From Eukaryota sp. GEM-RC1 (taxonomy: Eukaryota): DNA of 64,000 bases. Positions 50,442 to 51,960 of the stretch are shown here, piece by piece (position 1 is the stretch's first letter; each line of letters begins with the position of its first letter). The notes below the pieces were generated by a model that did not search any database, was not told the DNA's origin, and saw only the letters and a list, made by a program, of their open reading frames with translations. The position numbers and the translations under genes are program-made. The stretch is from assembly GCA_040285855.1 (NCBI GenBank), contig JAUFOQ010000013.1:1240001-1304000 (forward strand). The letters are read 5' to 3'.

Positions 50442-51317
50442 GTTTGTGCAGAGAGGAAAATTTATGTCCTAGTCTATTATTACAACAAAGATTCCATTTT
50501 TGACTTTCAATCAATACAATAGGGTGGGTTTATTCATTCCGTGATGAATTTGTCATTCACGAGGATTAATGTTTTACTATAACTAACTAATACAGGATCA
50601 ATAAAGGAACCAGTGAAGTAGAAATTCAAGGAGTAGTAGTTTTAACAGGAATGGCAAGAGCCTCGTTAACTGTTTTAGTCAAACTGGAAAGAGAAGAAGG
50701 GTTAGGCAAAATCAGGTCTTGACACTTAATTCGTGGAAGTCGCCATTGATTATTCGTACGATCATACACTTGAAGGTTGAGTTTTTGAGAAAGTTCCCAC
50801 ACTAAGAATTTAAGTGTCGGCTGCCACAAACCTAAGAAATCTTACCAACATAAACGTGTTCAAAAATTTGTTCACTAATCAGTCTGTTGCTGGGTTGAGT
50901 ACAAATGGCCCAGAACAATGAGCCTTAACTTTATTAATTATCTTGTGACTGGTTCTTTTCATGATGAGAACTACAGATTTACTTGAAGATACTAAAACAA
51001 TTTTTTATTAACGAAAAGTTTAAATCAAAAACATTCTGTATGAAGAGTTTCGACAACGTCGTTGTCTATATTCAACGTTCCAATGGCAAGTTTTTGATTC
51101 ATGTGAAAATCTGGATCACCATATTGGAGAGCAAATCTGTGGACCAAGTTTTGTTCACTTCGTTCTTTTCTTGAATAATGGGTAAGGCGTCTACGTCTAA
51201 AAAATTTCTCTTCATAGAAACAAGCCTTGAAAGTTTTTGGAACTGAATCAGTTGTAATTAAAACTTTTGTAACTCAAATACAACTGCACTTGTGGATAAA
51301 CAGTAGATTTTCAACAT

Positions 51318-51416
51318 CCACTGCCGTAGCTTTGATGATGCAGCCTCCCTATCCTTATCTAACTCAACTCGAGACTGACTCCATTGCAGGGTTTCGGGCT
51401 CAGTTGAGTTTAGATA
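51318..51416 (+). repeat. Inverted, diverged copy of the element C leader hairpin
   Basis: Matches the reverse complement of ~40319-40417. Confidence 0.9.
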
Positions 51417-51960
51417 GTCCCAGTATGAAAGGCCTTATTACTTTATGCAAAATTCTGTCTATTAACAGGACAGTGATTGATCTGGATATCTCCCCCAACT
51501 TAATTGATATTGAAAGTCACATTTTCTGTTTTTCACCAACGAATTTTGTTCCCAAAGAAGCGGGGGTGGCAGGATTTGAAGAGGTGATGTATATGACATA
51601 AAGACCATTTACATCTGTTGATCTACTCTGCTTCTGAATTGTACAGAGGAACGAAGATATACCACCAAGCTATTGCTCAAGATGTTCCCATTGTGACTTT
51701 GAGAAGAAGAGCAGAGAGAAATGAAACGGAGGGAACGAAGAAAGTTATACAGTATGGCCAAGACAAATCACAAGACAACCATACTTCTCAGAGGACAATC
51801 TTCAAGTGGTTCAATGCAACGTTAAGCGGATCTACGAAACATACAATGCAAGAGGCATTCAGCAAGAATCAGTCAGAAATCCAGTGTTTTCAGCAGAGGA
51901 GATAACTGAAGGAGCATCATCACAGAAGAAGTGTATAAAGAGAAAACCACGGAACAACAC

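What the first reader, a model, noticed from the sequence alone, without database searches (positions are those of the whole stretch)
50614..51545. Patchwork of short copies of the neighbouring island, laid out in reverse order
Seen: 50614-50701 matches 50016-50103 (USP); 50745-50786 matches 47232-47273; 51033-51101 matches 44176-44243; 51216-51280 matches 43011-43083 (all direct). 51318-51416 is an inverted copy of ~40319-40417, followed by an unrelated gene-like fragment. Donor positions move steadily leftwards as the patchwork runs rightwards. Spacers are non-repetitive. Inference: serial template-switch filler DNA at the element end, or an archive of element fragments that could yield silencing small RNAs. 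The small mismatches argue against simple misassembly.
Basis: partly seen in the sequence, partly recalled or inferred. Interest (0 to 1): 0.72.

Follow-up and report, generated by a model that had tools for sequence, protein, structure and literature searches.

The report
Patchwork insertion of transposon gene scraps
A stretch of about 1.4 kb in a protist genome is stitched from 40-110-base scraps of several mobile-element genes, at least one from a subfamily not present next door, likely joined when a reverse transcriptase hopped between RNA fragments; a role in silencing those elements is possible but untested.

Summary
The short copies are real and far beyond chance, but they are not simply copies of the neighbouring island. 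That island is a nest of independent multi-copy elements: two hairpin-2A-polyprotein families (one with Fanzor, one with a DEAH helicase), plus Ulp1, USP and PIF1 units.

Three other pieces carry alleles seen only in copies elsewhere. The reverse order fades once all pieces are counted (P 0.017 to 0.38). The run also holds an LRR fragment and probably extends to 52047. There are no repeats between pieces, no target-site duplication and no poly(A).

Best reading: a young, complex templated insertion, likely made by LINE reverse transcriptase jumping across RNA scraps; a DNA-repair patch is the main rival. Unexplained: five pieces share one reading frame (P 0.01-0.05, post hoc). No reads or genome were available, so misassembly is not excluded. 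A Piwi-feeding archive is possible but unshown.

The parts
50614..50701 (-). Piece 1: 88 bp of the ubiquitin-specific protease (USP) gene
   Evidence: 87/88 to 50016-50103; the one change makes a stop; one other USP copy found (P0042), so the donor may be the local gene
50702..50744 (.). S1, 43 bp, origin unknown
   Evidence: no match in the window or in 100 stored proteins; too short for the library searches
50745..50786 (-). Piece 2: 42 bp of the element-B polyprotein
   Evidence: 42/42 to 47232-47273; its allele is shared by the local copy and 2 of 6 other copies that cover the site
50787..51026 (.). S2, 240 bp, origin unknown
   Evidence: no hit; coverage of frames incomplete
51027..51109 (-). 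Piece 3: 83 bp of element B, region after the DEAH helicase
   Evidence: 94% to 44170-44251; carries a Cys allele found in 1 of 7 other copies (P0034) and not in the local copy
51109..51216 (-). Piece 4: 108 bp of a Fanzor/TnpB gene of a second subfamily absent from the window
   Evidence: 35/36 aa to P0017, 31-34/36 to 9 members of the P0018 cluster, 28/36 to the local Fanzor
51216..51280 (-). Piece 5: 65 bp of the C-terminal helicase-like domain of element B
   Evidence: match to 43011-43083 with an 8-bp gap; donor ORF hits Helicase_C, E 8e-4
51281..51317 (-). S3: possible piece of an element-B region deleted from the local copy (weak)
   Evidence: 7/11 aa to the P0019 N-terminus, E 0.016-0.057 in small databases
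51318..51416 (+). Piece 6: hairpin leader module of element A, inverted
   Evidence: 88% to 40319-40417; allele shared with P0096 only; covariance-model hit, 86 bits (the model was built with this copy)
51417..51545 (+). Fragment of an RNI-like leucine-rich-repeat gene, in frame with the module peptide; right end approximate
   Evidence: ESM Atlas feature score 0.97, LRR_6 clusters, 173 shared features; no Pfam hit; no close annotated donor
51597..51902 (+). Open frame resembling a pogo/Tigger transposase N-terminus (lead only)
   Evidence: Atlas 0.91, HTH_psq clusters, 164 shared features; no Pfam hit
51945..52047 (-). Hairpin leader module of element B with no 2A motif directly behind it; probably another piece
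   Evidence: 84% to 48294-48396; alleles as in P0060, not as in the local copy; no 2A motif found here
35223..40583 (-). Neighbouring element A: hairpin modules, 2A-like motif, Ulp1 protease, PolB-exonuclease-like domain, Fanzor
   Evidence: clusters of 11 and 18 members
42699..48583 (-). Neighbouring element B: hairpin modules, 2A-like motif, polyprotein with DEAH helicase; internally deleted near 45020
   Evidence: cluster of 14 members
48734..50441 (-). USP gene flanking the patchwork on the left
   Evidence: Pfam UCH, E 5.6e-9; 96% identical paralogue P0042

Best explanation
The stretch is a mosaic of 40-130-bp scraps from several multi-copy mobile-element genes and an LRR gene, at least one scrap from a subfamily absent from this window, likely inserted recently as one complex patch by a LINE reverse transcriptase jumping end to end across RNA fragments. 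Shown: the pieces, their families, a distant donor for the Fanzor piece, alleles from other copies in three more pieces, and short junction overlaps. Inferred: one or two events, an RNA template, and the enzyme. It most likely has no evolved function, though it could be transcribed antisense to those elements.
For: Distant donors: Fanzor piece 35/36 aa to P0017 against 28/36 locally; Cys allele of P0034; module alleles of P0096 and P0060. Divergence from the local copies is uneven: permutation P 0.12 for four pieces, 0.01 with the module, below 1e-4 with Fanzor (event counts entered by hand). Youth: pieces 1 and 2 differ by 1/88 and 0/42. Every assigned piece comes from a gene or a gene leader. 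The first five are all sense on one strand. Both module pieces cover a whole stable hairpin (z -4.2 and -5.3). Overlap is 1 nt at 51109 and 1-3 nt at 51216 (the Fanzor side is inferred from protein). A truncated R2 reverse transcriptase crosses at least 10 templates in vitro, helped by a 1-nt overhang (10.1101/2021.04.30.442027, passages). Human templated insertions of 73-414 bp appear RNA-derived (PMC5110952, sections 4-5). LINE-like remnants lie in this window (assigned from recalled motifs).
Against: No target-site duplication and no poly(A). The strand flips twice (module and LRR on +, last module on -), which a single cDNA does not give simply. No lost intron was seen. The exact donor loci were not identified. 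DNA-templated capture predicts nearly the same picture. The strand bias is weak (5 of 6 or 6 of 7 pieces with a DNA or protein match). The shared reading frame is not explained. No reads were available.
Confidence: 0.45

Rival explanations
1. The same complex insertion, but DNA-templated: end-joining capture of DNA or cDNA scraps at a break, or serial template switching by a repair polymerase. The break could come from an element-encoded Fanzor.
For: Mixed strands. Piece 1 lies 600 bp from a 99% identical gene, as in flank-templated filler. In yeast nearly 4,000 of about 33,000 insertions at breaks join 2-4 fragments, some of mixed origin (PMC11372161, passages). No target-site duplication or poly(A).
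Against: At least seven pieces, more than the 2-4 reported in yeast. Every assigned piece is genic or leader sequence. Overlaps of only 1-3 nt at the two testable junctions.
Confidence: 0.25
2. A selected or programmed archive: scraps of active elements are collected behind the USP upstream region and transcribed antisense to feed Piwi.
For: Pieces 1-5 would be antisense on a rightward transcript. The neighbouring A and Ulp1 units start divergently about 115 bp apart, so divergent transcription is plausible here too (inference). A Piwi-like gene has FPKM 2201, row 55 of the expression table for Skoliomonas sp. GEMRC (PMC11316075, supplement file 5; annotated by best hit). Trichomonas has small RNAs correlated with lower element expression (PMC7845603, abstract and section titles).
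Against: No repeats or leader between pieces. Strand flips. Includes an LRR fragment. Only one locus seen. No second copy of the chimeric frame among proteins of 145-2000 aa. No RNA data.
Confidence: 0.1
3. An assembly or polishing chimera inside a repeat nest.
For: Host genes in the window are broken by frameshifts, a sign of residual consensus errors (inference). Both flanks are repeats. No reads could be laid.
Against: Pieces carry alleles of other copies and unique junctions, and there are at least seven pieces within 1.4 kb. A long read would span the whole stretch (reasoning, not tested).
Confidence: 0.1
4. An old graveyard of nested insertions worn down by deletions.
For: The region is a nest of elements, and the local copy of B has an internal deletion.
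Against: Three B pieces lie in direct orientation but reverse order, which would need three separate copies each cut to under 90 bp. Pieces 1 and 2 are nearly unmutated. No element ends were recognised among the pieces.
Confidence: 0.1

Closest known systems
Templated sequence insertions (class 2 TSIP) in human cells, PMC5110952
   Same: Short patches copied from distant loci, end-joining-like junctions, RNA template suggested
   Different: Described as single patches of 73-414 bp in the sections read; here at least seven scraps of 40-130 bp, mostly from mobile-element families, in a protist
Complex multi-fragment insertions at yeast double-strand breaks (Ty cDNA, mtDNA, nuclear DNA), PMC11372161
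   Same: Several unrelated fragments, retroelement cDNA among them, joined at one site
   Different: 2-4 fragments there; experimental breaks; no shared strand or frame reported in the passages read
Serial template jumping by R2 non-LTR reverse transcriptase, 10.1101/2021.04.30.442027
   Same: End-to-end concatenation of many short templates helped by a 1-nt overhang
   Different: In vitro, with a truncated enzyme; a genomic product of this kind is only inferred here
piRNA clusters with endogenous viral element fragments in Aedes, 10.1101/127498
   Same: Fragments of invaders from different families side by side in element-rich loci; template switching proposed
   Different: Loci up to more than 50 kb, unidirectional, piRNA output shown; here 1.4 kb, mixed strands, no RNA data
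L1Tc/NARTc 5' end (Pr77 promoter-ribozyme plus 2A), PMC3383444
   Same: Donor elements A and B begin with a structured leader followed by a 2A-like motif
   Different: The hairpin has no Rfam match and was not shown to have an HDV fold; the cargo is Ulp1, Fanzor or a helicase, with no reverse transcriptase found

Membership tests
Class 2 templated sequence insertion (break patch) | Insert copied from a distant locus | tested here: met
   Fanzor piece matches a subfamily absent from the window, 35/36 aa
Class 2 templated sequence insertion (break patch) | End-joining junctions (microhomology or untemplated bases) | tested here: inconclusive
   1 nt and 1-3 nt overlaps at 2 junctions; at the others one donor is unknown
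Class 2 templated sequence insertion (break patch) | Empty-site allele, and donor left intact | not testable with these tools
   no genome, no runs listed
LINE-primed insertion (class 1 TSIP) | Target-site duplication | tested here: not met
   longest candidate 8 nt; 175 of 200 shuffles gave 9 or more; the right boundary is uncertain
LINE-primed insertion (class 1 TSIP) | Poly(A) tail | tested here: not met
   no run of 7 or more A or T in 50401-53100
piRNA cluster | Produces Piwi-bound small RNAs | not testable with these tools
   no RNA holder listed
piRNA cluster | Element fragments in one orientation | tested here: inconclusive
   five or six pieces on one strand, then two flips
piRNA cluster | Host has a Piwi-clade Argonaute | tested here: inconclusive
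   best-hit annotation in a supplement table for the organism of the named paralogues; the protein itself was not checked
CRISPR-like array | Direct repeats separating spacers | tested here: not met
   no repeat family between the pieces
Helitron gene capture (features recalled) | Rep-helicase gene | tested here: not met
   Pfam gives PIF1 only and no Rep domain in the ORFs scanned; PIF1 copies are not linked to the other units
Helitron gene capture (features recalled) | Helitron termini around the captured pieces | not tested
   boundaries unknown

The most novel reading that the evidence does not exclude
A repeat-less, CRISPR-like memory in a free-living metamonad: RNA scraps of active mobile elements are reverse-transcribed in series into dedicated loci behind a divergent promoter, and the antisense transcript feeds a highly expressed Piwi. 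The shared reading frame would reflect ribosome-phased cutting of the captured mRNAs.
Probability: 0.08. Interest if true: 0.85.

Novelty: new variant of a known kind. Interest (0 to 1): 0.42.

Why it matters
As a one-off patch, it is a natural, apparently fixed example of many-fragment templated insertion in a deep-branching protist. It shows how elements might swap gene pieces. If such mosaics recur and yield small RNAs, they would be a way to write a compact immune memory against transposons, testable at once with genome, long-read and small-RNA data. The donor elements (hairpin leader, 2A, then Fanzor, helicase or protease cargo) were not found in print by one search and may deserve their own look.

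Tried and rejected
No whole genome is held. No sequencing run was listed, and no RNA holder; this is no evidence either way.

The scan's earlier findings gave nothing. Metagenome scans found no relative of P0019 (24 pattern matches, none confirmed). The module motif had 0 matches in metagenome and viral contigs. The viral scan with the local Fanzor got no answer and was not repeated.

The origin of S2 was not found. One minus frame was searched by phmmer against 1.84 billion representatives (only P0042 hit). Four frames were searched together by word search (922 candidates, none at E<=10). In simulation that query recovered exact 27-aa pieces 4/4, 0/5, 8/8 and 6/10 times by frame, and 15-aa pieces never. 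One plus frame was not searched in any library, so this blank is weak.

No close donor for the LRR piece among proteins of 194-2000 aa (75 candidates). A codon-bias scan of the spacers was uninformative.

Rejected: one giant element (different units within 10 locus tags: 4 observed, 5.1 expected, 89 listed tags); collinearity with one diverged paralogue (P0060 and P0066 keep the local order); a CRISPR-like array; a known ribozyme (Rfam at E<=1 gave 3 tRNAs and 2 sub-threshold hits). A paper search for fragment mosaics in protists returned 0 (5 of 6 terms).

Full report
Observation. It adds two: 51109-51216 matches the Fanzor-like ORF at 35962-36069 at 77%, and 51945-52047 matches the repeat at 48294-48396 at 84%. 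Three pieces abut without spacers (51027-51280). Of 1434 bases in 50614-52047, 586 have a nucleotide-level match in the window.

Host and neighbourhood. The window is eukaryotic: host genes, three tRNAs and many frameshifts. Near-identical paralogues of the island's proteins are labelled Eukaryota sp. GEM-RC1, a free-living metamonad called Skoliomonas sp. GEMRC in PMC11316075 (passages). Element A (35223-40583, minus strand) has hairpin repeats, a 2A-like motif (consensus recalled), an Ulp1 protease, a PolB-exonuclease-like domain and a Fanzor. Element B (42699-48583, minus strand) has related hairpins, a 2A-like motif and a DEAH-helicase polyprotein, deleted internally near 45020 in this copy. 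An Ulp1 unit, a USP gene and a PIF1 gene complete the nest. The 90% clusters hold 11 and 18 (A), 14 (B), 16 (Ulp1) and 19 (PIF1) members; one other USP copy was found. Among 89 listed locus tags (not all members were listed), different units fall within 10 tags 4 times against 5.1 expected. The island is therefore a nest of independent elements, not one element. Remnants with LINE-like endonuclease motifs lie elsewhere in the window (motifs recalled).

Where the pieces come from. The Fanzor piece translates to 36 residues: 35 identical to P0017, 31-34 identical to nine members of a 14-member cluster that cover the site, and 28 to the local Fanzor. It comes from a subfamily that is not in the window. 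Piece 3 has a Cys found in P0034 alone among seven other copies; P0020 was treated as the local copy and left out, and P0039 and P0041 do not cover the site. P0034 seems to differ from the piece a few codons away, so it is probably not the exact donor. The inverted module shares an allele with P0096 only, and the module at 51945 shares alleles with P0060. Pieces 1 and 2 are 87/88 and 42/42 identical to local sequence, so they may be local and the patch is young. The stretch 51417-~51545 looks like an RNI-type LRR (Atlas 0.97). The frame 51597-51902 resembles a pogo transposase N-terminus (0.91, a lead only); Pfam finds neither. S1 and S2 stay unassigned, with limited sensitivity. S3 is a weak 7/11 match to a part of B that the local copy lacks.

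Junctions and layout. Pieces 3/4 overlap by one base and pieces 4/5 by one to three (the Fanzor side is inferred from protein). There is no target-site duplication above chance, no A or T run of seven, and no repeat between the pieces. Pieces 1-5 are sense on the minus strand, the inverted module and the LRR are sense on plus, and the last module is on minus. Both module pieces cover a whole hairpin. Unexplained: the main parts of pieces 1-5 fall in one reading frame, giving an 82-codon chimeric open frame at 51028-51273. P is 0.012, or 0.049 if either side of the internal indels may count. The module and the LRR are also in frame, the pogo-like frame is not: 5 of 6, P 0.018. These tests are post hoc, S2 is full of stops in that frame, and the frame does not run into USP.

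Mechanism. Serial deletion of a nest would keep the B pieces collinear; they are reversed. Backward copying of the local island cannot supply the Fanzor piece. Independent short templates joined end to end fit best. I favour RNA scraps copied by a LINE reverse transcriptase (0.45): the assigned pieces are genic or leader sequence, run in same-strand blocks and overlap by about one base. An R2 enzyme crosses at least ten templates in vitro, aided by a one-base overhang (10.1101/2021.04.30.442027, passages), and human break patches appear RNA-derived (PMC5110952, abstract and sections 4-5). DNA-level capture at a break (0.25) predicts much the same; yeast makes 2-4-fragment insertions (PMC11372161, passages). 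The strand flips and the lack of a duplication or tail count against a plain retrotransposition event. Misassembly (0.1) and a worn graveyard (0.1) remain.

Function. None is shown. A rightward transcript from the USP upstream region would be antisense to five pieces. A Piwi-like gene stands at row 55 (FPKM 2201) of the expression table for Skoliomonas sp. GEMRC (PMC11316075, supplement file 5 part 2; six files searched, one scanned PDF not searchable). Trichomonas has small RNAs correlated with low element expression (PMC7845603, abstract), and Aedes clusters of viral fragments yield piRNAs (10.1101/127498, passages; its supplements were not seen). This keeps an archive possible (0.1), but there is one locus, no repeats, mixed strands and no RNA data.

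Novelty. It works like a complex templated insertion and fails the tests for a LINE-primed insertion, a CRISPR array and Helitron capture. It differs from the described cases in the number and shortness of the pieces and in drawing on several 2A-headed element families. One search for comparable mosaics in protists found no paper, and one for such elements found only an unrelated review, seen as a listing. Verdict: real in the assembly, a new variant of a known kind, interest 0.42.

Noticed in passing
window 40305-40556, 48302-48550, 51335-51430, 51953-52048: A roughly 80-nt hairpin with a conserved tip heads elements A and B just before the 2A-like motif. 12 of 30 pairs change on both sides (5 sequences, two families), folding z -4.2 to -6.1, no Rfam match. 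A candidate promoter or ribozyme like L1Tc Pr77 (PMC3383444, passages).
   Followed up: partly
window 35223-48583: Two multi-copy elements with a hairpin-2A head and polyprotein cargo (Ulp1, PolB exonuclease-like, Fanzor; DEAH helicase), with no transposase or reverse transcriptase found. How they move is unknown.
   Followed up: partly
window 51028-51273 (-): An 82-codon open frame fuses three unrelated pieces; an internal 1-bp insertion and an 8-bp deletion bring the larger parts into one frame.
   Followed up: partly
window 3696-10500: A second nest: SF1 helicase (AAA_11/AAA_12), Ulp1-like repeats, 2A-like motifs near 6212 and 10150, and a different leader repeat at 6326-6590 and 10324-10501.
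   Followed up: no
window 1900-3600, 14400-15700, 18500-19650, 59200-60800: Degraded LINE-like copies; one head near 3500-3600 resembles the head at 10190-10302 and carries a 2A-like motif.
   Followed up: no
window 52605-52986 and 57787-58287: A 127-bp tandem repeat (3 copies, no unusual folding) and a 15-bp array (about 27 copies) flank the PIF1 region.
   Followed up: no
window 448-1577, 17130-18223: Bacterial-looking alanine dehydrogenase and alanine-racemase-like genes (names recalled from motifs), each split by a frameshift.
   Followed up: no
window 40583-40698: Element A and the Ulp1 unit start back to back about 115 bp apart, suggesting a bidirectional promoter.
   Followed up: no
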